From Planctomycetota bacterium (GTDB taxonomy: Bacteria; Planctomycetota; Planctomycetia; Pirellulales; Pirellulaceae): a DNA stretch of 64,000 bases. Positions 2,797 through 43,018 of this stretch are shown here, in pieces. The DNA lies in contig JBCCYK010000003.1 in assembly GCA_039189905.1 (NCBI GenBank), positions 13,813 through 77,812 on the forward strand, given 5' to 3'. Position 1 is the stretch's first letter. Every line of letters starts with the position of its first letter. The notes beneath the pieces were generated by a model. It made no database searches and was not told where the DNA came from. It saw only the letters and a list, made by a program, of their open reading frames with translations. The position numbers and the translations under genes are program-made.

Positions 2797-4713
2797 TCAA
2801 ATGCGGGCCGACTCGTTGCGCAACCACAGTTCCAACACCAGAAGATTCCACAAGCGATAGCCCTCACTCTGCTCACCTGACTCGTGACGTCGAACCAACT
2901 CGGAGATCGGCTCGCGTCGCAGAATCGACTGCAAAGGTGAATCATCGGCCAACAAAGTATCATGCACCAGCGGCTTGAACTCGTTTCGAAACCAGTCGTG
3001 GATGGGAATCCCAAACCCCATTTTTTGACGCGTGAAGATGTTCGACGGGATGCGGTTGCCAAATGTGTCTTGCAGCAAGAGCTTGCCACGCCCGCCGCGA
3101 AACTTCAGGCTGATTGGCAAGGAAGCCGCAAACTCCACCACGCGGTAGTCCAGCATCGGCTGGCGGACTTCCAAGCCATGCGCCATGGATGCGATGTCCA
3201 CCTTGGTCATCAAGTCGCACACCAAGTACGACTGCAGATCCAACAGCGAAGCGCGCGTCGCGAGATCACGCCCCGCACTTCGCTTCCAAATCTGATCCAA
3301 GAAATCAACCGGGTCGCTGTCCGGCAACGTTTCGACAAACTCATCCGTGTAGAGACGGGCACGCATCGTTTCCGAAAAGATCTGCAACCAATTCAAATAG
3401 CGTCTCAACGGATCCTGATCCAGCGCTTCGAGGAAGCGTTTGGCGCGCCGCAGGATCGAGTAACGGCGATTCGAATTGGGAATGCGTTGCACCAGACCAA
3501 TCCCGGGCAATCGGTGGAGGGGTAACCGGCGACGCAGACGATCACTCAACCAAAGTGCCCGATAGCGGTCGTATCCGGCGAACAATTCGTCGCCGCCGTC
3601 ACCCGACAAAGCCACGGTGACGTCTCTGCGTGTCAACTCAGACAGGTACCAGGTTGGCATCGCAGAACTGTCGCCGTACGGCTCATCGTATTGCTCCACC
3701 AAACGATCGATGATTCCGATGGCGTCGGGTGTGACCTCAAAGCGAGTGTGCTGGGTTTGCAAGTGCTCCGCAACTTGAGCCGCGTAGGCAGTCTCGTCAA
3801 AGTCGGCAATGGGAAACCCAATGCTAAAAGTTCGCAACGTCTGTTCGGTCGCATCTTGTGCAAGTGCCGTGATCAGGGAGGAATCGATCCCTCCCGAAAG
3901 AAACGCACCCAGAGGCACGTCGCTTCTCATACGCAGCCGGACGGAATCCTCCAACAGCTCCTGCAGCTTCTCGATCGCGTCGCCCTTCTCGATGGCGATC
4001 TCGCGAGACGGATCAAAGTGCCAATAATTCTGAACCTGCAAACCCGATCGATCAAATACCGCCATGTGCCCTGGCGGCAGTTTCTTCACACCCTGATAGA
4101 TCGTGCCGGGATGTGGCACGTATTGATACAGCAGGAACTCATCAATGGCTGCGGGATCGATCTGCTCACAGACACCCGGCACTCGCTTGAGTGACTTCAG
4201 TTCGCTCGCAAAGACAAGGCGATCATCCTTCAAGCAGTAATGCAGCGGCTTCTGCCCGATACGATCACGTGCCAACACAAGACGATGACGATTGGAATCC
4301 CAGATCGCGACAGCCAACATGCCGTTGAGTTGTTGAAAGCAGTCGAGTCCAAGATCCTCATACAGATGCAGGATGGTTTCGCCATCACCGTCCGTCTTGA
4401 AACGATGGCCGCTTCCCTCCAAGCGACGACGCAGAACGGGGTAGTTGTAAATCTCCCCGTTGAAGACCATGTGGATGCTGTCATCTTCATTCGACAGCGG
4501 CTGGCGCGCCCCCTCGACATCGATGATCGACAACCTGCGAAAACCGAGACCGACGCCACAGACATGACCCGACGCGTCCCGATGCTCCGGATCCATCCAG
4601 ATCTGAGCATCATCGGGCCCCCGATGCGAAATGGCCTCCGTCATCGACCGCAAAAGACTGGCATCCACGCGGCGACGGTCGTCATGCCAAACCGCGCCCG
4701 CGATGCCGCACAT
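2797..4713 (-). CDS. asnB: asparagine synthase (glutamine-hydrolysing)
   Basis: Canonical N-terminus MCGIAG (Cys2 nucleophile) at 4713; the longer ORF reaching 4833 is probably an upstream extension. The PP-loop SGGIDSS is present. Length is about 638 aa. Confidence 0.9.
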   Translation of the reverse strand: MCGIAGAVWHDDRRRVDASLLRSMTEAISHRGPDDAQIWMDPEHRDASGHVCGVGLGFRRLSIIDVEGARQPLSNEDDSIHMVFNGEIYNYPVLRRRLEGSGHRFKTDGDGETILHLYEDLGLDCFQQLNGMLAVAIWDSNRHRLVLARDRIGQKPLHYCLKDDRLVFASELKSLKRVPGVCEQIDPAAIDEFLLYQYVPHPGTIYQGVKKLPPGHMAVFDRSGLQVQNYWHFDPSREIAIEKGDAIEKLQELLEDSVRLRMRSDVPLGAFLSGGIDSSLITALAQDATEQTLRTFSIGFPIADFDETAYAAQVAEHLQTQHTRFEVTPDAIGIIDRLVEQYDEPYGDSSAMPTWYLSELTRRDVTVALSGDGGDELFAGYDRYRALWLSDRLRRRLPLHRLPGIGLVQRIPNSNRRYSILRRAKRFLEALDQDPLRRYLNWLQIFSETMRARLYTDEFVETLPDSDPVDFLDQIWKRSAGRDLATRASLLDLQSYLVCDLMTKVDIASMAHGLEVRQPMLDYRVVEFAASLPISLKFRGGRGKLLLQDTFGNRIPSNIFTRQKMGFGIPIHDWFRNEFKPLVHDTLLADDSPLQSILRREPISELVRRHESGEQSEGYRLWNLLVLELWLRNESARI

Positions 4714-4904
4714 GCTGTAGTTACCCCGAATAGGACAAGCAAAGAAGGTTTCAGAAGCGGCAATATACCGGCTGAAACCGCTCGAACCGACCGGGGTGGC
4801 CGGCCCCGCCCAGCGATCCGATTGGGAAGCCATTTCAACGCCCCATATCGCGCGTTATTCTCGCGGCATCGTCCCGGCGCCTCCCCACCTTGCTCAGGTT
4901 GTCC

Positions 4905-7900
4905 ATGTCCGAATCGCCGCTCGCAGATCCCGATTCCGAGACCGCCTCCAAGCCCAACCGGCCTTTTGTCCACCTGCACTGCCACAGCCACTACAGCCTG
5001 TTGGACGGTGCCGGGGACATTAAGAAGCTGGTCGGTCGGTGCGTGGACCACGGCATGAACTCCCTGGCATTGACCGACCACGGCAACCTGCATGGTGCGC
5101 TCGAGTTTTATCGCGCGTGTAAGGGCGCTTCGATCAATCCCATCATCGGATATGAAGCCTACATCGCGCCGGGAAGCCGTTTTGATAAAGGCGGTGCATC
5201 CAGCAGCAAGGCGGCCAGCTATCACCTGACCTTGCTTGCGCAAAACCGCACTGGCTTCCGCAACCTCATCAAGCTCGCGTCTGCTGCTTCCCTCGAGGGT
5301 TTCTATTTCAAGCCACGGATCGATCGCGAGATCCTGGAGAAGTACAGCGAAGGCATCGTTTGTCTCTCCGGATGTGTGAGCAGCGAGTTCAGCCGCGCGG
5401 TGATTCGCGGCGTTGACACCGCGGAACACGAACAGGAAGCCAAGAAGATCGCGGGCTGGTTTCACAAGGTGTTTGGCGATCGTTACTTCATCGAGATCAT
5501 GAACAATGATGTCGAAATTCAGAAGCAACAGCTCGACGGTGCCGTTCAGATCGCCAACCGCATGGGCCTGCCCCTGGTTGCGACCAGCGATACCCACTAT
5601 GTCGATCCGGAGGACGCGGAAGCTCAGGACATCATGCTGTGCATCAACACGGGACGTTTTCGCACCGATAGCTCACGAATGCGGATGGAGAACGATCAGT
5701 TCTTCCTGCGTAGTCCCGAGCAAATGTACGAGAAGTTCCCGGGTCTGGAGGACGCGGTCGCACGCAGCCAGTCCATTGCCGATTCGGTCGACATTGATCT
5801 GGAACTGGGGAAGTACTACTTCCCCAACTTCGAGTGCCCCGAGCAGAAAACACCGCTCGAATACCTTCGTGAACTGTGCCTCAAAGGACTCTTTGAGCGT
5901 TACGAAGGCGACGAGACGCGCATCCTGGATGGAGAACTCTCCGATGAGGTGATGGCGCGGCTCGATCGCGAACTGGGTGTGATCGAGAAACTCGGGTACC
6001 CGACCTACTTTTTGATTGTCTGGGACTTCGTCCACCACGCCCGATCCAAGGGAATCTCGGCCACGGCACGGGGATCCGGCGTGGGCGCCTTGGTTTGCTA
6101 CGCCCTTTATCTGTCACACGTCTGCCCGCTTCGCTATGACCTGTTGTTCGAACGCTTCTTGGATGAAAGCCGTACCGAACCGCCCGATATCGATATCGAC
6201 TTTGAGAAAGAACGCCGACAAGAAGTCATCGATTATGTGAAGGAACGTTACGGTCACGAGATGGTGTGCCAGATCGGGACCTTCGGAACCCTGGCTGCGC
6301 GTGCGGCGATCAAGGATGTCGGTCGGGCCTTGGGCGTTCCCCTTGCACGCGTCAATCAGATCACCGAAATGGTGCCTGATGAACTGAAAATCACGATCGC
6401 CAAGGCTCTGGATAAGAGCGCGGATCTGAAACAGACCTACGACGGAGATCCCGAGGTCCGCGAACTCCTGGATCTCGCCATGAAGATCGAGGGATTGGCG
6501 CGCAACGTGGGGACACACGCCGCCGCCGTCGTGATCGCTGATAAACCGTTGACGGAATACGTTCCTTTGGGGCGTGTCCCCGGCAAACAAGACGTGATCA
6601 CCCAGTGGTCCATGAACGACGTGGAAGCCTCGGGTTTACTCAAGATGGACTTCTTGGGGCTTCGCAACCTGACGATCCTGTCACGAGCCGTGCAGCTGGT
6701 AAAGCAAACCACCGGTCAGGACATCGATCCGCTGAAATTCCCACTGGATGACAAAGAGTCGTACGCGCTTTTGCAACGCGGTGAAACCAAAGGGGTGTTT
6801 CAACTGGAGTCAGGCGGCATTCGCGACCTGCTGCAACGAATGAAACCGGACGCCTTCACGGACATCATCGCGACGGCCGCCTTGTATCGTCCGGGTCCGC
6901 TCGAGGGCGGCATGGTGGACGACTACGTCAACATCAAGCACGGCCGCCAACAACCGGAATACAAACACCCGGTTTTGAAAGAAGTCCTGGAAGAAACCAA
7001 TTCAATCATGGTTTATCAGGAACAAGTCATGCGGATTCTCAACCGACTCGGTGGGATCCCTCTGGCCAATGCGTATACCTGCATCAAAGCCATCAGTAAG
7101 AAGAAAGAGGCCCTGATCAATCAGAACTACGAGGCTTTCATTGCTGGCTCCGTCAAAAACGGTCTCGACAAGAAAGATGCGGAAGAGATCTGGAACCTCA
7201 TCATCAAGTTTGCAGGCTACGGGTTCAACAAATGCGTCGTTGGCGAAACCGAAGTCGTGGACGCCGAAACCGGCGAGCATGTTCGCATCAGCGACCTTTT
7301 TCACCATCGCCGTCCATTCAAGGTCGCGGCGCTCGATGAGAACCAGCGTCTACGCGTTCGAAAGGTCCGCGATGTCGTTTGGAATGGTGTTCAACCAACC
7401 TTCGAAGTCAGCTTGAGATCAGGTCGCTCCATCACCGCCACCGGCAATCATCCGCTTCGTGTCTTCGACGGATGGAAGAACGTGGAAGACCTGCAGGCGG
7501 GAGAGCATGTTGGCATTGCGCGGGTCCAAGCGGTCGCCCAACCCGTCACTTGGGAAGACCACGAAGTGATCACCTTGGGTTGGCTCCTGTCAGAAGGAAA
7601 CCTCTGCCACCCAACATGTTTGTACTTCTATTCCAATGACGAATCTCAAGTCGAGGACTTCGTGACCTTCTCCGCGATGTTTGAGGCGACTTCGCCACGG
7701 ATTGATCGACGTTCGGATGGGCGCATCGAAGTGTGCCTGTCCACGGGAACTGCGACTCGCTTTGATCAGGTCGCTTCGGTGGGCGTGGGGACCTGCGTTG
7801 CCGCGACGCAGCTCTCGGGTTTGCGTTGTGAAGCCTATCGGTGGATCGAACGACTGGGGCTGCTCGACAAAAAGGCCACCGAGAAGTTTATGCCACCGGA

Positions 7901-9713
7901 CGCCATGCGATTGGGGGAACGACAAACCGCATTGCTGCTGGGACGACTCTGGGCGGGCGACGGTTATGTCGAGCAGGTAGGCCAACAATCCTACTACGCC
8001 ACATCGTCCATCTCCCTCGCTCGAGGCGTCCAGTTCTTGCTTCAGCGTTTGGGCATTCCATCGCGTTTGACCGAGAAGGCATTTCCGTACAAGTACCGGA
8101 AAGACTCAACTCAACGACCAGGCTTCACGGTGCACCTCGTTGGTCACGAGGGCCGGTATCGATTCCTGACGAAAGTGGGCCCTCACATCTGCGGCAAAGA
8201 AAATGCCGTGGCCGCGGTCTTGGACAAAATGGAGTCCGGTTCCGGCCTGACAACCGGTGACTTGATTCCGACCGAAGTTCGGAAGATCGTTCAACGAAAG
8301 AGGAGTGCTGCCCAGATTCCATGGCGTGAACTGGAATCCGACAGCGATGTCTTTTACGACGAAGTTGTTTCGATTGAACCGAAAGGTTTCCAGGACGTGT
8401 ATGACCTGGAGGTAGAAGACGACCACAACTTTGTCGCCAATGGAATCATCGTCCACAACTCGCACAGTACGGCGTACGCGTTGGTTGCGTACCAAACCGC
8501 TTATCTGAAAGCGCATTATCCGGTCGAATTCATGGCCGCGTTGCTGTCGAGTGATATCTCGGGACGCAACTTCAAACGCAAGGACGCCTTGGTCGAACAC
8601 ATGGAAGATTGCGATCGGATGGGCATTGAGATCAACCCGCCCGACGTCAATCGCTCGGATGCGGACTTTGCGGTGCAGGATGGAAGGATCAACTTCGCCC
8701 TCTCAGCAATCAAGGCCTGCGGCGGTTCGACAGCCACCACCATCGAATCGGAACGCAAAAAGAACGGTCCCTACAAAGACATTTTCGACTTTTGTGAACG
8801 AGTGGATCCTGGTGCCTGCAACCGAAGCGCGATTGAAACGCTCGTCAAAGCCGGTGCGATGGACAGCCTGGGACACCACCGGAGCCAGCTGGCTGCCGTG
8901 ATTGATCGTGCCTTGCAATCGGGCGCGGCCATCCAAGCCGACAAGAAACACGGCCAGGCTTCGCTGTTTGGGGCGTTTGACGAGGAAGACGCGCTCGAAA
9001 GTGATCAACCCGCCGTTCCCATGCCCGACATGGACGAGTGGCCGGACCGCGAGAAGCTTTTGGCTGAGAAAGAGGTTCTTGGCTTCTATCTGGAAAGCCA
9101 CCCGCTGGCGGAGTTCGAATCCAAGTTAGCGACGTTCCGCACGCACACCACGGATGATCTGGCGGAATGCGATGACCGCGCGGAAGTCATCCTCGGCGGT
9201 ATGATCAGCAGTATCAAATTCGCACACACCAAGAATGGGAAGCCAGGTCAGCCAACCAAGTATGCCAACTTCGATCTCGAGGACATGCAAGGAAGTGTCC
9301 GTTGCATCGTTTGGCCCAAGGGTTTTGTCACCGTGGGTGATCACGTGCAAGCCGACTCCGTTGTCTTAGCGAAAGGCAAGGTGGACCGACGCGGCGGGGG
9401 CGATGAAGTCAATTTGATCATTGATGAGCTGATTCCGATCAATGACCTGGACACTCGCTACACGCACGGGATCCGTATTCGGTTGAACGAAACCAACCAC
9501 GATCAATCCACCATCGCAGGTATCCGCGAAGTCATGCGAGGTTATCCCGGTTCCAAAGAACTCCACTTCACCATGGATTTGTGTGAAGGCGAAACGGTCC
9601 ACCTCAAAGCGGACCGATTTCGCGTGGACATCACACCCGAACTGCGTTCCCGCTTGGATGACCTCTTGGGCGATGGCCATTACCGACTGATGATGAGCAA
9701 ACCAAAACGCTAG
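4905..9713 (+). CDS. dnaE: DNA polymerase III alpha subunit, intein-containing precursor
   Basis: PHP domain motif HLHCHSHYSLLDG is present, along with polymerase core motifs and a C-terminal OB-fold region. The ORF track starts at a TTG (4890); the first ATG is at 4905. The product is about 1600 aa, and about 1190 aa after removing the 409-aa insert, which is normal DnaE size. Confidence 0.93.
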   Translation: MSESPLADPDSETASKPNRPFVHLHCHSHYSLLDGAGDIKKLVGRCVDHGMNSLALTDHGNLHGALEFYRACKGASINPIIGYEAYIAPGSRFDKGGASSSKAASYHLTLLAQNRTGFRNLIKLASAASLEGFYFKPRIDREILEKYSEGIVCLSGCVSSEFSRAVIRGVDTAEHEQEAKKIAGWFHKVFGDRYFIEIMNNDVEIQKQQLDGAVQIANRMGLPLVATSDTHYVDPEDAEAQDIMLCINTGRFRTDSSRMRMENDQFFLRSPEQMYEKFPGLEDAVARSQSIADSVDIDLELGKYYFPNFECPEQKTPLEYLRELCLKGLFERYEGDETRILDGELSDEVMARLDRELGVIEKLGYPTYFLIVWDFVHHARSKGISATARGSGVGALVCYALYLSHVCPLRYDLLFERFLDESRTEPPDIDIDFEKERRQEVIDYVKERYGHEMVCQIGTFGTLAARAAIKDVGRALGVPLARVNQITEMVPDELKITIAKALDKSADLKQTYDGDPEVRELLDLAMKIEGLARNVGTHAAAVVIADKPLTEYVPLGRVPGKQDVITQWSMNDVEASGLLKMDFLGLRNLTILSRAVQLVKQTTGQDIDPLKFPLDDKESYALLQRGETKGVFQLESGGIRDLLQRMKPDAFTDIIATAALYRPGPLEGGMVDDYVNIKHGRQQPEYKHPVLKEVLEETNSIMVYQEQVMRILNRLGGIPLANAYTCIKAISKKKEALINQNYEAFIAGSVKNGLDKKDAEEIWNLIIKFAGYGFNKCVVGETEVVDAETGEHVRISDLFHHRRPFKVAALDENQRLRVRKVRDVVWNGVQPTFEVSLRSGRSITATGNHPLRVFDGWKNVEDLQAGEHVGIARVQAVAQPVTWEDHEVITLGWLLSEGNLCHPTCLYFYSNDESQVEDFVTFSAMFEATSPRIDRRSDGRIEVCLSTGTATRFDQVASVGVGTCVAATQLSGLRCEAYRWIERLGLLDKKATEKFMPPDAMRLGERQTALLLGRLWAGDGYVEQVGQQSYYATSSISLARGVQFLLQRLGIPSRLTEKAFPYKYRKDSTQRPGFTVHLVGHEGRYRFLTKVGPHICGKENAVAAVLDKMESGSGLTTGDLIPTEVRKIVQRKRSAAQIPWRELESDSDVFYDEVVSIEPKGFQDVYDLEVEDDHNFVANGIIVHNSHSTAYALVAYQTAYLKAHYPVEFMAALLSSDISGRNFKRKDALVEHMEDCDRMGIEINPPDVNRSDADFAVQDGRINFALSAIKACGGSTATTIESERKKNGPYKDIFDFCERVDPGACNRSAIETLVKAGAMDSLGHHRSQLAAVIDRALQSGAAIQADKKHGQASLFGAFDEEDALESDQPAVPMPDMDEWPDREKLLAEKEVLGFYLESHPLAEFESKLATFRTHTTDDLAECDDRAEVILGGMISSIKFAHTKNGKPGQPTKYANFDLEDMQGSVRCIVWPKGFVTVGDHVQADSVVLAKGKVDRRGGGDEVNLIIDELIPINDLDTRYTHGIRIRLNETNHDQSTIAGIREVMRGYPGSKELHFTMDLCEGETVHLKADRFRVDITPELRSRLDDLLGDGHYRLMMSKPKR
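7233..8459 (+). mobile_element. intein with LAGLIDADG homing-endonuclease domain inserted in dnaE
   Basis: The insert starts with Cys (CVVGETEV, block A) directly after GYGFNK and ends IIVHN followed by Ser (SHSTAYALVAYQTAYLKAHYP). Block B is ATGNHPL. LAGLIDADG-like motifs are LGWLLSEGN (about 7575-7601) and LLGRLWAGDGY (about 7934-7966). Block F is VYDLEVEDDHNFVANG. Removing it restores the conserved GYGFNKSHSTAYA motif. Confidence 0.9.
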
Positions 9714-9794
9714 CCGGCACCGTCGGGCCCCAAGCGCAAAGCCTAGGACCCGGAAAGTGACCACCGATAGCGGCCTCGGTACTGTCGGAGCGAA

Positions 9795-10226
9795 TCAGTC
9801 GACCTGAACTTCAATTCGATGCGGACGCGCTTCCTCGCGTTTGGGCAACGTGATCGACAACACACCGTCACGGAAGCGAGCCTGCACGGATTTGGTGTCC
9901 ACCAGCTCCGGTAGCTCCAGCACCCGGTGAAATTCACCGCCAAGCCGTTCACGGCGATGCCATGTCACATCGGTTTCTTCCGATGCCGCTCGCTCACCGC
10001 GCACCGAGAGTTGGTTTTCACCCGTCACCGTGATCTCCACATTCTCCATGGAAACGCCCGGCAACTCAAAGTCAACGTGTATCGCCTCCTCGGTGCTCCA
10101 AGCATCCACGCGTGGATGCCAAGTCGCGGATGTCTCACCGCTGCCAGCGAAGACGCGGTCCATCTCATCCGACAGGCGATTCATCTGGGAAAACAAAACG
10201 GACGGGCTATAGCGAGAAACAATCAT
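9795..10226 (-). CDS. Hsp20/alpha-crystallin family small heat-shock protein
   Basis: 143 aa. Alpha-crystallin domain pattern: PRVDAWSTEEAIHVDFELPGV, ending in GVLSITLPKRE. Confidence 0.9.
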   Translation of the reverse strand: MIVSRYSPSVLFSQMNRLSDEMDRVFAGSGETSATWHPRVDAWSTEEAIHVDFELPGVSMENVEITVTGENQLSVRGERAASEETDVTWHRRERLGGEFHRVLELPELVDTKSVQARFRDGVLSITLPKREEARPHRIEVQVD

Positions 10227-10400
10227 CTCGTTACCTCATAAGTCATAAGTGTTGGGAATTTTTGGGAAGCTCGCGGGTTGCCGTTTTGGCAAATCCAGCG
10301 AACGCCTGTCACACTTATGCAGCGCCCGTGCCAATCTGTCGCTCATCGAATCATCAAGATTCCTAATTCGTGTCTCAGGTGCAAAAGATCGTCACAACAC

Positions 10401-10443
10401 AAGAGAAAAGGCCGCCAGAACGGCAGCCACCGCCAAAGCGGCC
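10401..10443 (-). terminator. candidate rho-independent terminator downstream of pyc
   Basis: The minus-strand RNA just after the pyc stop reads GGCCGC-(22 nt with internal pairing)-GCGGCC followed by UUUUCUCUU. Confidence 0.5.
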
Positions 10444-10457
10444 TGCCGCGTTGGCCG

Positions 10458-13400
10458 CTATTCAAGGACAACCAAGAGATCACCGGCCTCAACCTGCGTG
10501 CCGGGAGGCGTCTGGACTTCTTTGACGACACCATCGGCCGGGGCATTGATGGTCGTTTCCATCTTCATCGCTTCCAGCACCATCAGTTTCTGGCCCGCCT
10601 TAATCTTGTCGCCCGCTGCGGCGGCGACCGTGATCACCATGCCAGGCATCGACGCGGCCACGTGCGCCGGGTTGCCGGGATCCGCTTTGACCGCAGCCTT
10701 CACATCCACGTCCAAGGACTTATCGATCACCGAAACTTCACGCGGTTGCCCGTTCAGTTCGAAGAAGACGGTTCGAGTTCCATCGGGATAGGCTTGTCCC
10801 GTGGCCAGGTATTTGATGATCAAGCGCTTTCCTTGCTCGATATCGACTGCAATCTCATCTCCTGGTTCTTGTCCATAGAAGAAATTCGGGGTGGGCAGAA
10901 CGCTCACATCCCCGTAAAGGCTCCGATGACGTGCGAAGTCTTCGAAGACTTTCTCGTAGAGCAAGTAGGTCACGGCATCCTGATCGTTTTCGGACTCGCC
11001 CGTCAGCTCGCTCGCCTTCACGCGAGCGGCTTCGACGTCCGCTGGAGGCATGTTCGCGCCGGGGCGATCCGTGACGGGGGTTTCACCGGCAAGGACGGTG
11101 TCGATCACGGGCTGAGGAAAACCGCCTGGCGGTTGCCCCATTCGACCACCGATCAAGTCCAAGACACTTGCTGGAAACGCCAAGGCCTTCTCGCTCGTCA
11201 GAACCTCTTCGGCGGACATCTCGTTTGCGACCAAGAACAGGGCCATGTCCCCAACCGCCTTGCTGGTGGGGGTGACCTTGACGATATCGCCAAACAATCG
11301 GTTGACATCGGCATAGGAACGGCAGACATCCGCCCATTGATCGGCGAGCCCCAACGCGCGGGCCTGCTGGAAGAGATTGGTGTACTGACCACCCGGCATC
11401 TCGTGGTCGTACAGGTCTCCCGTGGCCGGCAGCACATCGCTTTCAAACGGCCGATAGAACTCACGTGCAGCCTGCCAGTACGCGGCCAGGCGTGTCAAGG
11501 CTTCGGTATCCAGCGTCGACTCACGCTCGGTATCACGCAACGCTTCGACCAAGGTATTGAGATTCACTTGACTGGTACCGCCCGACATCGGGGCGAGTGC
11601 GGCATCGGCGATGGGCAAGCCCTCGCCGGCCGCGGCCATCAAAGTGGAGGCTTGAATCCCCGCGGTATCGTGTGTGTGCAGGTGGATCGGAAGATCGGTT
11701 TCTTGTTTGAGCGCTCGCATCAACTTGACCGCGGCGGCTGGCTTCAAGAGCCCGGCCATATCCTTGATCGCGATCAAATGCGCGCCCGCTGAATCCAGCT
11801 TCTTCGCGAGGTCGACGTAGTACTTGAGATCATATTTGGTTCGTTTGGGATCTTGCAGGTCTCCGGTGTAACAAATGGACGCTTCGCATATGCCACCCTC
11901 TTCGATCACCGCCTCCATTGCGACGCGGATGTTTTCTTCCCAGTTGAGCGCGTCAAAAACACGAAACACGTCCATCCCGGCCTGGACGGCTTCTCGAACG
12001 AACAAACGCACCACATTGTCGGGATAGTTTGTATAGCCCACCGCATTGCTGGCTCGCAGAAGCATCTGAGTCAAGATATTGGGAACGGCGGCGCGAAGGT
12101 CCGACAAACGTTGCCAAGGAGACTCCTTGAGGAAACGCATGGAGGTGTCAAACGTGGCCCCGCCCCACATCTCCAAGGAGAACAATGCCGATGCATGGTG
12201 AGCGTATGCCGGTGCGATGCGCAACATGTCGTCGGTACGCACGCGAGTCGCCAACAAAGACTGATGCGCGTCTCGCATGGTTGTATCCGTCAGCAACAAT
12301 CCCTTCTGTTTGCGAATCCACGCCACCAATCCCTCCACGCCTTCTTCGCGGAAGATGTCGGCGGTTCCGCGAGGAGGTTTGGTTGCCTTGGGCGTCTCGG
12401 GGACCGGTGCTGGATCGCGTCGAAGGGCAGGCGGACGGTCCGCCACCAGACTGTTCCCATTGACGATGGTCTCGCCCAGAAACGTCAACAACTTCGTAGC
12501 CCGGTCCCGCCGCCGCGGTAGCTGAAACAGCTCGGGCGTGTTATCAATCAAACGCGTCGTGGACTCTCCGGCCAGAAACGTGGGGTGGTTTACCAGACGC
12601 AACAAGAACGGGATGTTCGTCTTCACCCCGCGAATACGGAACTCCTGCAAACAGCGATCCATGCGACGAGCCGCGGCGGTGAATTCCGGCGCACGCGCGG
12701 TCACCTTGACCAGCATGGAGTCATAAAAGGGGTTCACCACCGCACCACTGAATGCCGTTCCCGCATCCAGCCGAATCCCCAAACCCGCTGCCGACCGGTA
12801 GTGACTGATGCGCCCGTAATCCGGGCGAAAATCGGCTGCCGGATCTTCCGTGGTGACACGGCACTGAATCGCGAACCCACTGGTGGCAATGTCGTCTTGC
12901 GATGCCAATCCGATACTCTCGTGCTCCAGCGGGTGCCCTTGCGCGATCAAGATCTGGGATCGAACCACATCCACGCCTGTCACCTCTTCGGTCACGGTGT
13001 GTTCCACCTGGATCCGCGGATTCACTTCGATAAAGAAGTACTCGCCGGAATCGGTATCCAACAGAAACTCAACCGTGCCGGCGTTGTCATAGCTCGTCCC
13101 ACCGGCGACCTCCCCCACGGCTTTGCCGATCTGAACCGCCGCGTCGCAGATGCCTTTTCGGATCGAATCCGGCAGATTGGGAGCCGGTGCAATCTCAACC
13201 ACCTTTTGATGGCGTCGTTGCACACTGCAGTCGCGTTCGAACAAGTGCACCAAATTGCCATGCCGATCACCGATCAGCTGAACTTCCAGGTGACGCGCAC
13301 GTTGAACAAAACGCTCTAGGAAGACCTCATCACTTCCGAACGCGGTCTTCGCCTCGCGCTGCGCGGCCTCCAGGTTTCCAGCCAGATCCTCGGGCTTCAT

Positions 13401-13958
13401 CACGATGCGCATGCCGCGACCACCACCTCCCTTGGCTGCTTTCAGCATGATCGGATACCCAAGCGAACTTGCCGCCTCTTCCGCCTCAGGCAAAGAGGCC
13501 ACCGCCTTGGAAGTGCCACCCAGAATCGGCACACCGGCGGTGTCCGCCAAGCGACGAGCGCTGGTCTTGTCACCCAACTGACGCAAACAGGATTCACTGG
13601 GGCCGATAAACAGGATCCCCGCGTCCGTCAGGGCCTTTGCAAAATCCGGGTTCTCCGAAAGGAAGCCATAGCCAGGATGGACCGCGTCGATGTCGTGCTT
13701 CAAGCAAAGACCGACGATCGCATCGATGTTAAGGTACGACCGAATCGGCTCGCCGGGTTCTCCAATCTGATAGGCCTCGTCCGCTTTGAATCGATGCAGA
13801 GCGTAACGGTCTTCATGGGAGTAGATGGCAACGGTGCGAATGCCCAATTCCGTTGCCGAACGGAACACCCGCGTCGCGATCTCACTCCGGTTCGCGGCAA
13901 GCAATTTCCTGATGGGGCGCGTTTGTGAGTCAGCTTGCGCGCTGGGCGAGGTTGCCAT
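10458..13958 (-). CDS. pyc: pyruvate carboxylase (single-chain)
   Basis: Has an N-terminal biotin carboxylase/ATP-grasp region, a carboxyltransferase HxH site (IHLHTHDTAG) and a C-terminal biotinyl motif (EAMKME). The likely start is MATSPSAQ at 13958; the ORF extends to 14015. Confidence 0.92.
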   Translation of the reverse strand: MATSPSAQADSQTRPIRKLLAANRSEIATRVFRSATELGIRTVAIYSHEDRYALHRFKADEAYQIGEPGEPIRSYLNIDAIVGLCLKHDIDAVHPGYGFLSENPDFAKALTDAGILFIGPSESCLRQLGDKTSARRLADTAGVPILGGTSKAVASLPEAEEAASSLGYPIMLKAAKGGGGRGMRIVMKPEDLAGNLEAAQREAKTAFGSDEVFLERFVQRARHLEVQLIGDRHGNLVHLFERDCSVQRRHQKVVEIAPAPNLPDSIRKGICDAAVQIGKAVGEVAGGTSYDNAGTVEFLLDTDSGEYFFIEVNPRIQVEHTVTEEVTGVDVVRSQILIAQGHPLEHESIGLASQDDIATSGFAIQCRVTTEDPAADFRPDYGRISHYRSAAGLGIRLDAGTAFSGAVVNPFYDSMLVKVTARAPEFTAAARRMDRCLQEFRIRGVKTNIPFLLRLVNHPTFLAGESTTRLIDNTPELFQLPRRRDRATKLLTFLGETIVNGNSLVADRPPALRRDPAPVPETPKATKPPRGTADIFREEGVEGLVAWIRKQKGLLLTDTTMRDAHQSLLATRVRTDDMLRIAPAYAHHASALFSLEMWGGATFDTSMRFLKESPWQRLSDLRAAVPNILTQMLLRASNAVGYTNYPDNVVRLFVREAVQAGMDVFRVFDALNWEENIRVAMEAVIEEGGICEASICYTGDLQDPKRTKYDLKYYVDLAKKLDSAGAHLIAIKDMAGLLKPAAAVKLMRALKQETDLPIHLHTHDTAGIQASTLMAAAGEGLPIADAALAPMSGGTSQVNLNTLVEALRDTERESTLDTEALTRLAAYWQAAREFYRPFESDVLPATGDLYDHEMPGGQYTNLFQQARALGLADQWADVCRSYADVNRLFGDIVKVTPTSKAVGDMALFLVANEMSAEEVLTSEKALAFPASVLDLIGGRMGQPPGGFPQPVIDTVLAGETPVTDRPGANMPPADVEAARVKASELTGESENDQDAVTYLLYEKVFEDFARHRSLYGDVSVLPTPNFFYGQEPGDEIAVDIEQGKRLIIKYLATGQAYPDGTRTVFFELNGQPREVSVIDKSLDVDVKAAVKADPGNPAHVAASMPGMVITVAAAAGDKIKAGQKLMVLEAMKMETTINAPADGVVKEVQTPPGTQVEAGDLLVVLE

Positions 13959-14314
13959 GAGACTGCGGCCGTGCGAGAGGGATGATGGGAAGCTTGGCGA
14001 TGCCGAGGAAGCCAAGCTGGCGGTATCATCGCTGCGCCAAACGCGCCTGCCAACCTGCCTGCCCGGATGGGCCTCTCTAGCTAGGCGATATCGAAGGACG
14101 ATGTTGGAAGCACGCGTTGCGGCGATCGAGAAAGGCCCCGATCAAGTCCCTGTTCGCCCCTTCGAGAACAACCTCGAATGATACAATGGTCTCCGATGGA
14201 TATCTCGAGTGAGGTTCCGATGAAGGCCCCGTGGCGATTCGATCCGCGGCAGGCGTGCTCGCTCGTGCTTGTCATTTGGTCACGCAACATGAACTAACCA
14301 CAGAGAACGCATCC

Positions 14315-24775: not shown

Positions 24776-26578
24776 ATGACGCTGGATATCTCCTGTAAGT
24801 TTCGCCACAGCCTCCGTGCGTCTGACGGTCACGAGAAGGCGACATGCGGTTTGCTCCAAAAGTTACTGCTAGAACACCCAGATGACCCAGACAGCACTTG
24901 TGAGGTCAAGCGAGATGCTTGTATCGCCTGCAGTCGGTCACGACCCGTCGTCAGTGATCTGATCGGCGGGCCATTTGCCTCCATACTCAGCAATGCATGC
25001 GAGCGGAAACTACAACGGTTGGCGGTTGGTACAGCGAACTTTCAACATGTCTCGACATTAAATCAGATCGCCGACCAAGCGGTCCTTTCTCCTAACGGTT
25101 TGAAGCGCGCAGTCACCTGTGATGTCATTGTCTGGTGTGGATCACGATCATCTGCATCCCATCGGTCGATTAACAGCGTCCTCAATCAGTTGCTCGCCGA
25201 AACAACCGTTCACATCATCATCCCCGAATCAATAGAGGCTCGTTCCAGCGCACACGACGAGGAACTAGCGTCTCATTTCGGCTCCCGGTATGACGTTCGA
25301 ATCCACCGACTAAAGCATGTGATGACGCCTCTGCAGGCGGTTCACGAACTTGCTCCGAAACTACGAAGCGAGTTTATCGCGTTGCAAGATGCGGCGGCGA
25401 CTTCACTTCCCAAGCGGATTGAGTCAGCCATTAATGAGTTACGCAGACACGGAGCAGACTTTATCGGTTCACCGCTGGGCACGATTTTTGGCGACATCGA
25501 CGTTCCGGCGGACCCCGGTTCCAGGTTCGAACCTTCCATCCCGTGGCCCACCCTCGTCTTTCGTCGAGCCACGTTCCTGGATCTTGGGGGCGTTTCCGAT
25601 CGCAAAGAGGACGCTGACATCGAACTCCTTTATCGAGCGCACGCCTGCGGGGCAAAAATCGTTTCAATGCCTTGGGCAACCGTCCAGTTAGATCGACCGT
25701 GGGAACCTGCTAAATGTGAGGCAAAACCTGACTATTCAATGCGGTTTGGATCGCTACGTCACCACGCTTTGGGTTTCCCCAAAGTGACTGTCGCATGCGA
25801 CGTCGTCCTGCCCATTTATGGCCAACTTGATTATGTACGCCCCGCCCTTGAAAGCATCATGGAACAAGAGGATGCGGAAGCGATTGTCCACCTTGTGGAC
25901 GACTGCGGTCCCGAAGACGTGTCCGAACTTTTTCGCTACTGGGGAAGCCATCCAAGGGTTCGGCTGTATCGCAACCAGCGCAATCTGGGCCAGTACACGT
26001 CGTTCAACAATGTTTCGGATTTCTTTGAGACCGAACTCGTTGCGATTCAAGACGGCGATGACATCAGCTTGCCGCATCGCTTATCCGTCAGTGGCAATCT
26101 CTTAGAACTGGCCGACGGAGATTACTTTGCAGCCACGATGGAGCAGTTTGGAACGGCGGATGCTTTGCCCAATCGTCGGTCGAGATTCCCACAGGGGGCT
26201 CCTTCTGCCAACTACTTTGCAATGAACCCGACAGCTTGTTTTCGGGTCGCAATGTTCCGATCGCTTGGTGGGTTCGCGGATTACGGGGCTCATGAGCGCA
26301 ACCGTTGTGGCCTAGACACTGAGTTCATGAACCGCGCGTACCATTGCGAGCGGAGGTTTGCTGTGTCGACTTCCGTGGTCACACGGCACCGCATTCATGC
26401 GGCGGCCGCGACGCAGCGATCCGACACGGGTTTCGGTTCGCTGTTGCGAAATCAGGCTGACATGGAAGCACGACGGCGTATCGACCTGCTGCGAAACTCC
26501 CGGATGGATCCTCGGTACTTTGGTGGCCTGGGCAATCACCGCAGCCTGACGCAACGTTTGATGCCGGGCGCGTCTTAG
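24776..26578 (+). CDS. tandem GT2-family glycosyltransferase with N-terminal 5-Cys domain
   Basis: The N-terminus (ISCKFRHSL, ATCGLL, STCEV, DACIAC) is paralogous to the 23173-24333 protein. The first GT2-like module is degenerate (IALQDAAATSLPKRI). The second is canonical (DVVLPIYGQLDYV, VHLVDDCGPED, AIQDGDDISLPHRL). Confidence 0.75.
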   Translation: MTLDISCKFRHSLRASDGHEKATCGLLQKLLLEHPDDPDSTCEVKRDACIACSRSRPVVSDLIGGPFASILSNACERKLQRLAVGTANFQHVSTLNQIADQAVLSPNGLKRAVTCDVIVWCGSRSSASHRSINSVLNQLLAETTVHIIIPESIEARSSAHDEELASHFGSRYDVRIHRLKHVMTPLQAVHELAPKLRSEFIALQDAAATSLPKRIESAINELRRHGADFIGSPLGTIFGDIDVPADPGSRFEPSIPWPTLVFRRATFLDLGGVSDRKEDADIELLYRAHACGAKIVSMPWATVQLDRPWEPAKCEAKPDYSMRFGSLRHHALGFPKVTVACDVVLPIYGQLDYVRPALESIMEQEDAEAIVHLVDDCGPEDVSELFRYWGSHPRVRLYRNQRNLGQYTSFNNVSDFFETELVAIQDGDDISLPHRLSVSGNLLELADGDYFAATMEQFGTADALPNRRSRFPQGAPSANYFAMNPTACFRVAMFRSLGGFADYGAHERNRCGLDTEFMNRAYHCERRFAVSTSVVTRHRIHAAAATQRSDTGFGSLLRNQADMEARRRIDLLRNSRMDPRYFGGLGNHRSLTQRLMPGAS

Positions 26579-29500
26579 TGGTCGTTGTCGTTTGCAGCGG
26601 TGGGATGCGAACGGAATAGTCGAAAACCGTAGAAACTTCGTGAAGAGCCCGGCTCGGACCACCCCAGATAGCGAGGTTCTGTGCTTTCTCCTTCAAGACT
26701 TACACGAAAGTCAAACCCACAAAGCTGATTCCGGGTTGCATCGCCTGGGTCAATGTCATTGGCCCACTCGCGCACATTGAGATACATGTCGAAAATCCCG
26801 AAGCCGTTGGGGCGGGCGGCACCCACCGACCAAGAGCCTGCCCGGTCTGCCTCCCAGGAAAGTGCGTAACCGACATGCAGACCGTCCGTGATCGGTCCCG
26901 GACCACCTGATCCACTCCCGAAGGAGTAATCCGTGATCGCACCGCTGGAGCAGGCGAAGAACCACTCCTCGGCCATGGGAAGACGATATCCTGTGCGACT
27001 TCGGTAATCAGGGTAGATCCGAGCTGGTGGATCGTTCGGATTCTGTCGATCTGGATAGCAGAGTTGGTCGTCGGCGAGCCCTTCTTGTTTGGAGAGCCAG
27101 TTGCAGAATGCGACACACTCGTGATACGTAACATTGCCGGCCGCGACGCGGTCCTTGACGCCCGACCATTTGAACTCCTTAACACCGTCTCTTCGCCAAG
27201 TCTTCAGTTGCCCCAACGTGGTCTCGGCCGCCGCGATTTCGATGCGATACCTGTCCTCAGCTTCATGTTGAGGCAGTCGCACCATGGTCTGACCAATCGA
27301 GTTGACATACCAATCGGCCGCATCGTCGCGCAACTGACTCTTGGATTCAAACTGCTCGTTGGCCCAGTGCCCTTGATTCCACCGCTGCAGCAACCAATAG
27401 GCGTTCCCTCGTAGGACTGCCGTGGGGGCACTGAGAATCCAGCCTTTTGACAAAGTGATGACTTGTTCTCGGAGGCTCGCGTCCACCTCGGAGGGATCGA
27501 ACTCTCCCAGGACCTGGATCAAACCGCACTGCATCCGGAGATCCTGCTCGACAAGCAACTTCCTGGCCATCGGAGTCGGATCCGCCTGGAAGAGTCTGGC
27601 ACGTTGTACCAATCGCGTTCTTGCGTTCGGGATGGTGGTCCGACCGAAAGTGACCTCACGATAGCGCTGACTCAACGACTCAAAGCCGCCTTCTTCATTG
27701 AGTCGCGTCCAATGCTTCGACGGCAGGAGGCGTCGCAGCTCCGAACGAATCCAGTCCTCTGACTCTTCCATTTGCGCGGAACCCGTGGAGTCGGGTACTA
27801 AGACGGCCCAGACGTCCGCTGTGGTGATGTCGTGGCGAAGCAGGAGGGCTGCTGCTGTTGCCTTCCGCAAGGCAACCAGGATCCAACCCTCATCCCTCAA
27901 ACGGACGGGTTTTTGAATCGCTGTTTCTAGAACAGGCCGCACATTTTCGAAATGTTTGTCAATCAAGTCCTGCGATGCGAGGATCTGTTCCACGTCGGCA
28001 CCCAACAAGATGTCAACATACTCCGGAACGCGTTGCTCAAGCAGGCGGACCAACAGGTCCTGAGCCGCCGACTTCCGGAGCGTCCGGCCAACGGAATCCC
28101 CCGAGATCATGGCACTTGCAAGCGGATCGATCAGCGGGTCGACGGCTGGTTGTACCAGCTCCACCATCTGACTGAAGCTGGTCCGGTCAATGTTGGCAAA
28201 GTGAATGAGTTCTTCGGCAGCAAATGCGGCGTGTTCTCGCCAACGCTCATTGATTAGGTCATCGCCGCCCGGTGGATCGAGTTGGGCAAGTGCCATCAAG
28301 GCATTGAGCCGAGGATGATACGGCCGCCCCATTGGGTTGGTGGCCCGTTGCAGCGTCGTGTCACCGGCACACTTCCAGAGATAGTTGACCCATGCCGACC
28401 GTTGCGGCCTCAACTCGTTGCAAAGGACCCACAGAGTCTCAGGATCGCTCCGAAGAAGCGCTGGCTGGATCGTGGCGGCTTCCTCCTCGACCGCGGTGTG
28501 CTCGATCCGCCGCAATGCGAGGCTTGAGAAAAGGTGCCTGTTGGTCCCCGGTGGGTTTTGAACCCGGATGGACTTGAGTGGTTTCAAACTCCAATGACCA
28601 CGCTTCTCCAACGCGTCGAGTAGCCCGCTCAGCCCGCTTGGTTCCGCCACTTCGAGTTGCTGCGCCAGCGATCTGGCATGATTCCATCGTAAGAACTCAC
28701 GACAGCCAAAGACGCACACGAGGATCAAAACTGCAGTGGCCACCAAGAACCGTCCATGCCTTCGACCGGCGCTCCCCATCATTCCGGATTCAGTCTCGTT
28801 CCAACGGCTCTTGCTCGTAAACGCGTGGATTGCGATCCACTCGGTGATCGTTGGAAGGTGCCTTGGCTCGGGGCGCGTCCCCCAGACCTCGGCACGCTGA
28901 GCCAACCGCAGTTCAGCCTGCCCTCGCCGTGTTCCTCGCTGCATCCGGGATTGCCATTCGCGAATCGCAGGCACCAGATAGTCGTGTGCAAGCTGATAAA
29001 ACTCATCTTGAACGACATCAACCGCTTGAGGGCTGGAAAACGATCCGGACTGGCTAGTCGAGTTATCCCCGCGACCGCCTTGCGTTGTTCGGGTGATGAG
29101 GTGGAGGTCGTTATCCAACGTGCGAATAAGCGATTGGAACTGCTTGGGTTGAGCGGCATATCCGGAAATGGCGAGCAACTCTTCGTGGGAACGCATGTGC
29201 CCTTTGAGATTGGTCCCCGGCTGGGGCAATAAGGACCCCAGTGTCTCGTAGACCGCTTGAAGATGCACGGCATGTTCGGCGGGCGCGTTGGGGGACGAGA
29301 AGTTCTCCTCCAGGAACAGCACACCGACGCCTTTGGTTCCTCCAATTTGCTTCAGCGTTGCCGTGCTCCACGGGCGGGACTTGATCATTTCGGCGAACAA
29401 CGCGATCCGAACGGGGATCACTTTCCCATTCTCGGCCAGCCCGGCAATGGCCTGCTCGATGAACGCACGTTCGTCGCGGCTGAGGTCCGATGGGTTTTTG

Positions 29501-41418: not shown

Positions 41419-41470
41419 TGAAGTCCTGTTGAAGTGGCATCCGGCCAGTCGGGAACTCGGATCGGCTTGC

Positions 41471-42775: not shown

Positions 42776-43018
42776 GGTTTCCTCCTTGAAACAAGTCCCG
42801 CCGTCATCGCTACGGTGGTGCGCGTTCGGTGCCCACGGGAACGGTCCAGACCTGAGTCGCCGCGAGCGTCGAAACACAACAGCGTGAAACTGTAGCGAAA
42901 CCGTCAGTTTCCCGCAAAATCAATTTGGCCAGTAAATTGCGGCGATTGTTGAGACGCAAGAAGAGCGAGTTCGGCTTGTGATTCCGTTCCTATGTGTTCT
43001 GTCGCAGCTTAGTTGTCG

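What the first reader, a model, noticed from the sequence alone, without database searches (positions are those of the whole stretch)
7233..8459. Full-length intein with LAGLIDADG endonuclease splitting the DnaE [13 protein letters not shown] motif
The dnaE product is about 409 aa too long. The extra segment starts with Cys1 (CVVGETEV) and contains a TxxH-type block B (ATGNHPL). It also has two LAGLIDADG-like motifs and block F (VYDLEVEDDHNFVANG), and it ends HN followed by Ser+1. Excision restores the universally conserved [15 protein letters not shown] motif. From my recollection of the Synechocystis sequences, the cyanobacterial split DnaE intein sits at ...EY|CFNKSH, four residues upstream. 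If so, this is a neighbouring but distinct site that uses Ser rather than Cys as the +1 nucleophile. Both endonuclease motifs keep their acidic residues, so the element may still be mobile. A contiguous intein in the essential replicase is also a possible protein-engineering reagent.
Basis: partly seen in the sequence, partly recalled or inferred. Interest (0 to 1): 0.75.

Follow-up and report, generated by a model that had tools for sequence, protein, structure and literature searches.

The report
Ordinary intein in planctomycete DnaE
The replicative DNA polymerase gene of this planctomycete carries a real self-splicing intein with a nested homing endonuclease, but the same kind of intein sits at the same spot in hundreds of other bacterial genomes, so it is an ordinary, slightly decayed member of a known family.

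Summary
Window 7233-8459 (+) encodes a 409-aa in-frame insert in dnaE (4905-9713), flanked GYGFNK|C…VHN|SHSTAYA. It passes the curated Hint and LAGLIDADG_3 thresholds and keeps all canonical class-1 splicing residues (C1, T70, H73, D391, H398, H408, N409, Ser+1). Its AlphaFold model matches solved intein homing endonucleases.

A syntenic sister-species contig lacks exactly these 1227 bases. The spliced product is 1193 aa, the same length as that empty allele and 95.8% identical to it.

It is not novel in kind. About 60 of the 150 best cluster representatives carry an intein at this same K|S site. So do 20 of the 120 closest DnaE clusters and 75 of the 80 best genome loci, spread over more than 15 phyla. 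A 2016 survey already lists PolIIIα inteins in Planctomycetes.

Its nearest solved relatives are Ser+1 DnaB inteins.

The endonuclease keeps E121, D243 and K218. It has lost a 41-aa helical segment that 135 of 141 full-length family members retain, so current mobility is doubtful.

The protein is GenBank MEM9364500.1. Interest is low.

The parts
4905..9713 (+). dnaE (DNA polymerase III alpha) precursor gene, 1602 codons plus stop. An in-frame TTG lies five codons upstream at 4890.
   Evidence: The ORF list shows it. Pfam finds PHP, DNA_pol3_alpha, finger, HHH_6 and OB domains, and NCBIfam PRK05673 scores 1243.6 bits. It is 100% identical to GenBank MEM9364500.1, 1602 aa, 'MAG: DNA polymerase III subunit alpha [Planctomycetota bacterium]'.
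4905..7232 (+). N-extein coding part, ending ...FAGYGFNK.
   Evidence: It is colinear with the intein-less allele on L001 up to window 7231/7232 at 84% DNA identity.
7233..8459 (+). Intein, 409 aa (C1 ... N409).
   Evidence: Supported by the Pfam and NCBIfam matches and the PDB sequence matches. It is precisely absent from L001. The AF2 model has pLDDT 84.6. Its Foldseek top hits are the TliVMA, PhoVMA, PI-PfuI and PI-SceI inteins.
7233..7544 (+). N-terminal splicing (Hint) region, residues 1-104, with Cys1 (7233-7235) and block B T70/H73 (7437-7454).
   Evidence: TIGR01445 matches residues 1-77. The region aligns to Ssp and Npu DnaB mini-inteins over residues 3-97. T70 and H73 are invariant in 141/141 family members.
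7545..8339 (+). LAGLIDADG homing-endonuclease domain, residues about 105-369. Motif 1 is at 7575-7601 (E121 at 7593-7595). The block D Lys218 is at 7884-7886. Motif 2 is at 7935-7964 (D243 at 7959-7961).
   Evidence: Pfam LAGLIDADG_3 matches residues 233-316. E121, K218 and D243 are conserved in 134, 138 and 137 of 141 relatives. The model has the alpha-beta-beta-alpha-beta-beta-alpha lobes and matches PI-PfuI, PI-SceI and I-DmoI.
8328..8351 (+). Deletion scar. Between residues 369 and 370 (8339|8340) this copy lacks about 41 aa, with family consensus RSGVSMREFYGT.G.SAGKRGFRRSTIARLAEFF..DSERLRRLA.
   Evidence: Seen in the family alignments. The segment is present in 135 of 141 full-length inteins at this site. 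In the model of the relative P0161 it forms helices 367-374, 394-404 and 407-413 at high pLDDT. The remnant in the window model has pLDDT 48-59.
8340..8459 (+). C-terminal splicing region, residues 370-409. Blocks F and G are at 8397-8459 (D391, H398, H408, N409).
   Evidence: TIGR01443 matches residues 388-409. The region aligns to DnaB mini-inteins. Family conservation is 140, 137, 140 and 141 of 141 for these four residues.
8460..9713 (+). C-extein coding part, starting with Ser+1 (TCG) in SHSTAYALV, through the stop codon.
   Evidence: It is colinear with L001 from window 8463 at 81% DNA identity. Pfam finds HHH_6 and OB domains.

Best explanation
This is a canonical class-1 intein of the widespread allelic family that occupies the YGFNK|SH site in the fingers domain of bacterial DnaE.

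Inferred mechanism. The 1602-aa precursor is translated and the Hint domain folds. Cys1 then makes an N-S acyl shift at the Lys(-1)-Cys1 bond, assisted by block B T70/H73. Ser+1 attacks that thioester and forms a branched oxyester. Asn409 cyclises, assisted by H408 and the block F residues D391/H398, and releases the intein. An O-N shift then restores the [13 protein letters not shown] peptide bond and gives an active 1193-aa polymerase.

Origin. The element reached its hosts by homing, driven by its nested two-motif LAGLIDADG endonuclease, which cuts the empty dnaE allele. At the family level it has moved between phyla. In Pirellulaceae it is patchy, as expected from a homing cycle of gain, decay and loss.

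State of this copy. It keeps the endonuclease catalytic residues but has lost a conserved 41-aa helical segment that follows the endonuclease core. I therefore judge it to be splicing-competent, and more likely than not impaired or dead as a homing element.

Shown: anatomy, family membership, the empty allele, the distribution and the deletion. Inferred: the splicing chemistry, splicing activity and the state of the endonuclease.
For: 1. Hint and LAGLIDADG HMMs score above their curated cutoffs.
2. All canonical splicing residues are present, and they are invariant or nearly so across 141 relatives.
3. The AF2 model (pLDDT 84.6, pTM 0.83) matches bipartite intein endonucleases with TM 0.55-0.74.
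4. An empty allele exists. L001 is syntenic, with Asn synthase upstream and HSP20 and pyruvate carboxylase downstream. It lacks exactly 7233-8459. The spliced DnaE is 1193 aa, the same length as the L001 DnaE, 95.8% identical to it, and the junction peptide is identical.
5. The same site is occupied elsewhere. About 60 of the 150 best cluster representatives have it. So do 20 of 120 planctomycete DnaE clusters, including minis of 177-228 aa without LAGLIDADG. So do 75 of the 80 best genome loci, out of at least 579 matching species genomes in more than 15 phyla.
6. There is evidence of horizontal transfer. In 840 of 2016 locus pairs the inteins are more alike than the flanking 500 aa of extein, for example 65% against 43%.
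7. The distribution is patchy. The 32 closest exteins (83-96% identity) have no intein, and the closest intein (61%) sits in exteins 82-84% identical.
8. The deletion is documented.
9. The nearest solved relatives are the Ssp and Npu DnaB inteins. My flank parsing shows that DnaB inteins at the corresponding site also use Cys1 and Ser+1.
Against: No experiment shows splicing. Three family-conserved Hint positions differ here: T61L (97% T), W375Y (99% W) and A94G. None is a known catalytic residue.

Against the claim that homing is impaired:
- The catalytic E121, D243 and K218 are intact.
- Relative-rate tests show no significant acceleration of this copy's endonuclease domain (25 vs 19 and 28 vs 20 unique changes, p > 0.2).
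- The endonuclease domain is as conserved against its closest relative as the Hint-N domain is (63% vs 54%).
- The function of the lost segment is unproven. The only sequence hint is a sub-threshold HTH_3 match, E 0.046.
Confidence: 0.9

Rival explanations
1. The element is still fully mobile. The endonuclease is active despite the 41-aa deletion and can home into intein-less dnaE alleles.
For: Both LAGLIDADG acidic residues and the block D lysine are retained. The endonuclease domain shows no rate acceleration. The core endonuclease lobes are modelled with high confidence. A sister species has an empty site that could serve as a target.
Against: The lost segment is kept by 135 of 141 full-length relatives and contains four positions that are 89-93% conserved (K, G, R, L). 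That argues it matters for the endonuclease. The remnant around residues 340-370 is modelled with low confidence, pLDDT 48-59. The empty allele of the sister species differs at 19 of the 90 bases compared around the site, including an AGC/TCG serine codon switch.
Confidence: 0.35
2. The intein is kept because it acts as a conditional post-translational switch on the replicase, for example through redox- or metal-sensitive splicing, as has been proposed for replisome inteins in general. It would then be more than a selfish passenger.
For: The site lies in a catalytically important fingers motif. Inteins cluster in replisome proteins, which led the authors of PMC4760082 to propose functional roles. 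Mini-inteins without an endonuclease persist at this site in Pirellulaceae.
Against: Nothing in the sequence points to a sensor. The distribution is patchy: the 32 closest relatives, including a sister species, lack the intein. That fits a dispensable element better than an adaptive one.
Confidence: 0.08
3. The insert is a splicing-dead relic, or this dnaE is a pseudogene, and the cell relies on another polymerase copy.
For: A few conserved Hint positions are substituted: T61L, W375Y and A94G. The rest of the genome cannot be checked for a second dnaE.
Against: The reading frame is intact over 1602 codons. All catalytic splicing residues are kept. The exteins are 95.8% identical to the sister-species protein while the DNA is only 81-84% identical, which indicates strong purifying selection on this gene.
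Confidence: 0.02
4. The insert is an assembly chimera in a metagenome-assembled genome.
For: The source is a MAG.
Against: The junctions are exactly in frame at canonical splice residues. GC content (0.564) equals that of the exteins (0.561 and 0.559), and GC3 is similar. Dozens of independent assemblies have an intein at the same codon.
Confidence: 0.01

Closest known systems
Contiguous DnaE (PolIIIalpha) inteins at the YGFNK|SH fingers site. Examples are Rubripirellula obstinata CECT 8602 (L003), 'Phycisphaera sp. RhM' (L002/P0161), Deinococcus arenicola (L052) and Allochromatium humboldtianum (L053).
   Same: They share the same insertion codon, Cys1, Ser+1, a VHN end, and a two-motif LAGLIDADG domain with the EGN.CHP and GRLW.GDG signatures. 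Identity to the window intein ranges from 61% for the closest down to 33-50% across phyla.
   Different: The window copy is 409 aa, whereas 132 of 149 unique family members are 425-475 aa. It lacks the 41-aa helical segment after residue 369.
DnaB helicase inteins at DLRESG|C...HN|SIEQD, such as the Ssp and Npu DnaB inteins (PDB 1mi8, 4o1r).
   Same: These are the closest solved relatives by sequence, E 2.8e-20 and 2.5e-19. NCBIfam PRK07773 (a replicative DNA helicase model, matched over residues 1-368) gives E 3.1e-63. They also use Cys1 and Ser+1, have the same block order, and in the natural full-length forms carry a LAGLIDADG insert.
   Different: The host protein and insertion site differ. 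The solved structures are engineered mini-inteins without the endonuclease.
Cyanobacterial naturally split DnaE inteins (Ssp, Npu).
   Same: They share the same host protein, the same fingers motif and the Hint fold (Foldseek hits 4kl5 and 1zde).
   Different: Their site is AEY|CFN, four residues upstream (PMC3585056). They use Cys+1 rather than Ser+1, are split across two genes, and have no endonuclease. Sequence similarity is only weak, E about 1e-4.
Archaeal and yeast intein homing endonucleases with solved structures: TliVMA/PhoVMA (7qss, 7qsu, 7qst), PI-PfuI (1dq3), PI-TkoII (2cw7) and PI-SceI (1vde, 1lws).
   Same: They share the bipartite architecture, with a Hint domain interrupted by a two-lobed LAGLIDADG domain. 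TM-scores are 0.55-0.74.
   Different: Sequence identity is only 12-19%. The hosts differ (VMA ATPase, RNR, PolB), and so do the accessory DNA-binding modules.

Membership tests
Class-1 intein (Hint-fold self-splicing domain) | Nucleophile (Cys, Ser or Thr) as the first residue | tested here: met
   Cys1 is TGC at 7233-7235. All 152 parsed family members begin with Cys, which my junction pattern itself required.
Class-1 intein (Hint-fold self-splicing domain) | Block B TxxH motif | tested here: met
   T70-G-N-H73. T and H are invariant in 141/141 relatives.
Class-1 intein (Hint-fold self-splicing domain) | Blocks F and G: conserved Asp and His, a penultimate His, a terminal Asn, and a +1 nucleophile | tested here: met
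   D391, H398, H408, N409 and Ser+1 (TCG at 8460) are present.
Class-1 intein (Hint-fold self-splicing domain) | Profile-HMM match above the curated threshold | tested here: met
   PF14890 scores 90.3 against 35.8. TIGR01445 scores 42.2 against 24.5. TIGR01443 scores 40.4 against 15.6.
Class-1 intein (Hint-fold self-splicing domain) | The insert is precisely absent from orthologs, and its removal restores a colinear host protein | tested here: met
   The L001 allele lacks exactly 7233-8459. The spliced product and the L001 DnaE are both 1193 aa, and the junction peptide is identical. 100 of the 120 closest DnaE clusters lack it.
Class-1 intein (Hint-fold self-splicing domain) | Actual protein splicing | not testable with these tools
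   This needs expression and detection of ligated exteins.
Intein-nested LAGLIDADG homing endonuclease | Two LAGLIDADG motifs, each with a catalytic acidic residue | tested here: met
   LGWLLSE121GN and LGRLWAGD243G. The acidic residues are conserved in 134 and 137 of 141 relatives.
Intein-nested LAGLIDADG homing endonuclease | Profile match and a two-lobed alpha-beta-beta-alpha-beta-beta-alpha fold | tested here: met
   PF14528 scores 46.5 against 22.5. Foldseek matches PI-PfuI, PI-SceI, I-DmoI and I-Tsp061I.
Intein-nested LAGLIDADG homing endonuclease | The complete domain architecture of its own allelic family, including the helical segment after the endonuclease core | tested here: not met
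   A 41-aa segment is missing after residue 369. It is present in 135 of 141 relatives.
Intein-nested LAGLIDADG homing endonuclease | Site-specific cleavage of the empty allele (homing) | not testable with these tools
   There is only indirect, family-level evidence: intein identity exceeds extein identity in 840 of 2016 locus pairs.
DnaE YGFNK|SH allelic intein family | The same insertion codon in DnaE, with its closest sequence relatives at that site | tested here: met
   The best hits in all three searches are DnaE inteins at this site.
Cyanobacterial split DnaE intein | Insertion at AEY|CFN with Cys+1, and the intein split between two genes | tested here: not met
   The site is four residues downstream, the +1 residue is Ser, and the intein is contiguous.

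The most novel reading that the evidence does not exclude
The most novel reading my evidence does not exclude is that this 409-aa copy is a naturally trimmed but still active homing endonuclease-intein. It would have shed the helical accessory segment that nearly all relatives keep. That would make it a natural experiment on the minimal DNA-recognition requirement of this family. Alternatively, the intein could be retained as a conditional switch on the replicase. Nothing in the data positively supports either reading.
Probability: 0.1. Interest if true: 0.35.

Novelty: new member of a known kind. Interest (0 to 1): 0.15.

Why it matters
It matters little beyond correct annotation. GenBank MEM9364500.1 is named only 'DNA polymerase III subunit alpha', so the mature replicase (1193 aa) and the intein (409 aa) should be annotated separately.

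The survey done here is modestly useful. It shows that YGFNK|SH is a heavily used, cross-phylum intein site in DnaE, and that a homologous site is used in DnaE2-like proteins. It gives clear signs of horizontal transfer. Within Pirellulaceae it shows a homing-cycle series: empty sites, 450-aa full forms, this 409-aa trimmed form, and 177-228-aa minis.

As an engineering reagent this copy has no evident advantage over characterised Ser+1 inteins such as Ssp DnaB.

Tried and rejected
- The first word-indexed homolog search with the intein alone gave only 10 hits and missed the family. The exhaustive HMMER search was needed.
- Exact-sequence contig look-ups for the window DnaE failed twice. The source was identified through the homolog search and the cluster look-up instead.
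- I could not map this site to an InBase allele name or a Novikova site letter. The supplements of PMC4760082 are not held, Caspi 2003 is not held, and text searches for 'DnaE-1/DnaE-2 Thermus' and 'DnaE-a..d' found nothing relevant. My memory of InBase entries is not used as evidence.
- Pfam does not recognise the missing 41-aa segment. There is only a sub-threshold HTH_3 hint, E 0.046, so 'HTH/DNA-binding' remains an inference.
It was redone with sequences from the protein searches.
- I did not attempt dN/dS because synonymous sites are saturated: even the sister species is only 81-84% identical in DNA. I used amino-acid relative-rate tests instead, and they were non-significant.
- There is no composition anomaly in the intein, no tRNA in the window, and no second Hint domain in the window.
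Full report
**1. What is in the sequence**

The ORF at 4890(TTG)/4905(ATG)..9713 on the + strand encodes a DnaE-type DNA polymerase III alpha subunit. Pfam finds the PHP, DNA_pol3_alpha, finger, HHH_6 and OB domains in the normal order. An Intein_splicing match and a LAGLIDADG_3 match sit between the finger and HHH_6 domains. NCBIfam agrees: PRK05673 scores 1243.6 bits, and the intein N- and C-terminal models are above their cutoffs.

Reading the DNA and translating it gives the following:
- TGC at 7233 is Cys1 and AAC at 8457-8459 is Asn409.
- The flanks are [11 protein letters not shown] and SHSTAYALV.
- The insert is exactly 409 codons.
- Removing it leaves 1193 aa.

**2. Is it an intein rather than a lineage-specific domain?**

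Three independent lines say it is.

(a) Profiles and residues. PF14890 scores 90.3 bits against a cutoff of 35.8, and PF14528 scores 46.5 against 22.5. C1, T70, H73, D391, H398, H408 and N409 are present. They are invariant or nearly invariant in 141 full-length relatives.

(b) Fold. An AlphaFold2 model (pLDDT 84.6, pTM 0.83) matches solved bipartite intein endonucleases. These are TliVMA, PhoVMA, PI-PfuI, PI-TkoII and PI-SceI, with TM 0.55-0.74. Its Hint part also matches the Ssp/Npu DnaB and Mtu RecA mini-inteins.

(c) An empty allele exists.
- The homolog search returned a 1193-aa DnaE (P0166).
- Its contig L001 is syntenic with the window: Asn synthase lies upstream, and HSP20 and pyruvate carboxylase lie downstream.
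- BLASTN aligns window 2813-7231 and 8463-14059 to adjacent L001 segments at 84% and 81% identity.
- At the junction, the window with 7233-8459 removed and the L001 allele encode the identical peptide [30 protein letters not shown].
- The two mature proteins are both 1193 aa and are 95.8% identical.

The 96% protein identity against 81-84% DNA identity also shows that this dnaE is under strong purifying selection. That makes a splicing-dead insert in a catalytic fingers motif very unlikely.

**3. How common is it?**

An exhaustive HMMER search with the intein found 7031 cluster representatives at E <= 1e-3, of which 213 were at E <= 1e-30. I parsed the flanks of the best 150. About 60 of them are DnaE proteins with the intein at exactly ...YGFNK|C...HN|SH.... 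A few are DnaE2-like proteins with it at the homologous YGFPE|...|SHAASF position. The more distant hits are mainly DnaB inteins at DLRESG|C...HN|SIEQD.

Among the 120 closest DnaE clusters, nearly all Pirellulaceae or other Planctomycetota, 20 carry an intein at this site. Fifteen of them are 388-464 aa and carry LAGLIDADG. Four are minis of 177-228 aa without it, one of them from Neorhodopirellula pilleata.

Of the 80 best loci, 75 have an intact intein at the same codon. They come from:
- Planctomycetota, Bacteroidota, Acidobacteriota, Myxococcota and Desulfobacterota;
- Gammaproteobacteria, Eisenbacteria, Omnitrophota, Methylomirabilota and Deinococcota;
- Chloroflexota, Gemmatimonadota, Actinomycetota and Patescibacteria.

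Cultured strains among them include Rubripirellula obstinata CECT 8602, Deinococcus arenicola and Allochromatium humboldtianum DSM 21881.

A published survey already counts 116 PolIIIalpha inteins, including some in Planctomycetes. It describes a fingers-domain hot spot with sites a-d and g within 75 residues, where site a is the split cyanobacterial one (PMC4760082). I could not obtain the supplementary figure that assigns letters, so I cannot say which letter this site carries.

**4. Relation to the split cyanobacterial intein**

[quoted passage not shown] It also states that all its orthologs share these flanks. Aligned to [10 protein letters not shown], that site is Y|G(C), four residues upstream of the K|S site used here.

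By sequence, however, this intein is much closer to DnaB inteins than to the split DnaE inteins. Ssp DnaB 1mi8 gives E 2.8e-20 and NCBIfam PRK07773 gives E 3.1e-63. The split DnaE inteins give only about 1e-4. My flank parsing also shows that the DnaB inteins at DLRESG|...|SIEQD use Cys1 and Ser+1.

**5. Mobility: the family against this copy**

*The family.*
- In 840 of 2016 locus pairs the inteins are more similar than the 500 flanking extein residues. One example is a Desulfobulbaceae and Planctomycetia pair, at 65% against 43%.
- That pattern is hard to explain without horizontal transfer.
- The endonuclease catalytic residues are kept in 134-138 of 141 members. This implies that selection has continued to act on endonuclease function.

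*Pirellulaceae.* The pattern here is patchy.
- The 32 closest exteins (83-96% identity), including the sister species, have no intein.
- The closest intein (61% identity; L002/P0161 and R. obstinata L003) sits in exteins 82-84% identical.
- Within Rubripirellula, R. obstinata has the intein, while R. tenax, R. reticaptiva and R. lacrimiformis have DnaE proteins of about 1188 aa.
- Together with the minis, this is the expected picture of a homing cycle.

*This copy.*
- It is 409 aa, whereas 132 of 149 unique family members are 425-475 aa.
- Alignment places the whole difference after residue 369. There it lacks about 41 aa with consensus RSGVSMREFYGT.G.SAGKRGFRRSTIARLAEFF..DSERLRRLA. That segment includes four positions that are 89-93% conserved.
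- 135 of 141 full-length relatives keep the segment.
- In a model of the closest relative (pLDDT 87.8) the region forms a confident helical bundle with helices at 352-363, 367-374, 394-404 and 407-413.
- In the window model only the first one and a half helices remain, at pLDDT 48-59.
- The conserved basic KRGFRR motif and a weak HTH_3 hint (E 0.046) suggest a DNA-binding accessory module. That is an inference.

*Evidence against decay.*
- E121, D243 and K218 are intact.
- Relative-rate tests show no significant excess of changes in this copy's endonuclease domain.

I therefore put the chance that this copy can still home at about one in three.

**6. Mechanism**

The mechanism is inferred from established intein chemistry and was not tested here:
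1. N-S acyl shift at Lys(-1)-Cys1.
2. Transesterification to Ser+1.
3. Cyclisation of Asn409.
4. O-N shift.

The products are the 1193-aa DnaE and a free 409-aa intein. Because the insert interrupts the conserved fingers motif GYGFNKSHS, the precursor is expected to be inactive and splicing to be obligatory.

**7. Other checks**

The intein has the same GC content as its exteins (0.564 against 0.561 and 0.559) and a similar GC3. It is therefore not a recent arrival from a compositionally different donor. There is no second Hint domain in the window. The source protein is GenBank MEM9364500.1, from a Planctomycetota MAG on an 85-kb contig.

**8. Verdict**

This is a correctly spotted but ordinary feature. 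It is a new member of a large, already surveyed family of DnaE inteins. Its one distinguishing mark is an internal 41-aa deletion, which suggests that it is on the way from a full homing intein to a mini-intein. Interest is low.

Noticed in passing
P0136 (2114-aa DnaE from the representative search), residues 744-1165 and about 1252-1534: This DnaE has two inteins. One is at GT|C...HN|CVYQEQ. The second is at the same FNK|SHS site, but it carries a Cys-rich, HNH-like insert (CGECGK...CEGC, HKSHDYRHN) instead of a LAGLIDADG domain. The same site is therefore used by inteins with different endonuclease types.
   Followed up: partly
P0053 (1699-aa DnaE), junctions at about 808 and 1272: An intein sits one residue upstream of the K|S site, with flanks EYSFN|C...AHN|CSHSAAY and Cys+1. 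This is a neighbouring, distinct insertion point in the same motif.
   Followed up: no
P0061, P0078, P0091, P0095, P0097 (representative search): These polymerases have flanks YGFPE|C...HN|SHAASFAL, which from memory look like DnaE2/ImuC-type error-prone polymerases. They carry related inteins at the position homologous to K|S. This suggests the family crosses paralogs.
   Followed up: no
window 26575-31353 (-): A 1592-aa protein combines a Ser/Thr protein kinase domain, an nSTAND1 NTPase and a C-terminal FGE-sulfatase-like domain.
   Followed up: no
window 37534-41532 (-) and 41471-42877 (-): A 1332-aa AAA_27/AAA_23 (SMC/SbcC-like) ATPase overlaps the end of a 468-aa ORF that has no Pfam match. 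The pair's function is unknown.
   Followed up: no
window 49694-50674 (+): A methenyl-tetrahydromethanopterin cyclohydrolase (MCH, E 2.9e-100). This is a marker of the H4MPT-linked C1 pathway, which from memory is known in Planctomycetes.
   Followed up: no
window 54892-55800 (+) and 53473-54762 (-): A protein with a MerR-type HTH_17 domain plus B12-binding domains, CarH-like in architecture, is divergently placed next to a 429-aa sigma-70 family protein.
   Followed up: no
L001 13947-15725 (-) compared with window about 14016-14230: The sister-species contig has an extra 592-aa gene without a Pfam hit between pyruvate carboxylase and the ThuA-like gene. The window lacks this gene.
   Followed up: no
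window 7233-8459, intein residues about 177-193: The loop DQVASVGVGTCVAATQLSG inside the endonuclease domain is the least confident part of both models (pLDDT about 40). It is also the most length-variable region of the family alignment.
   Followed up: partly
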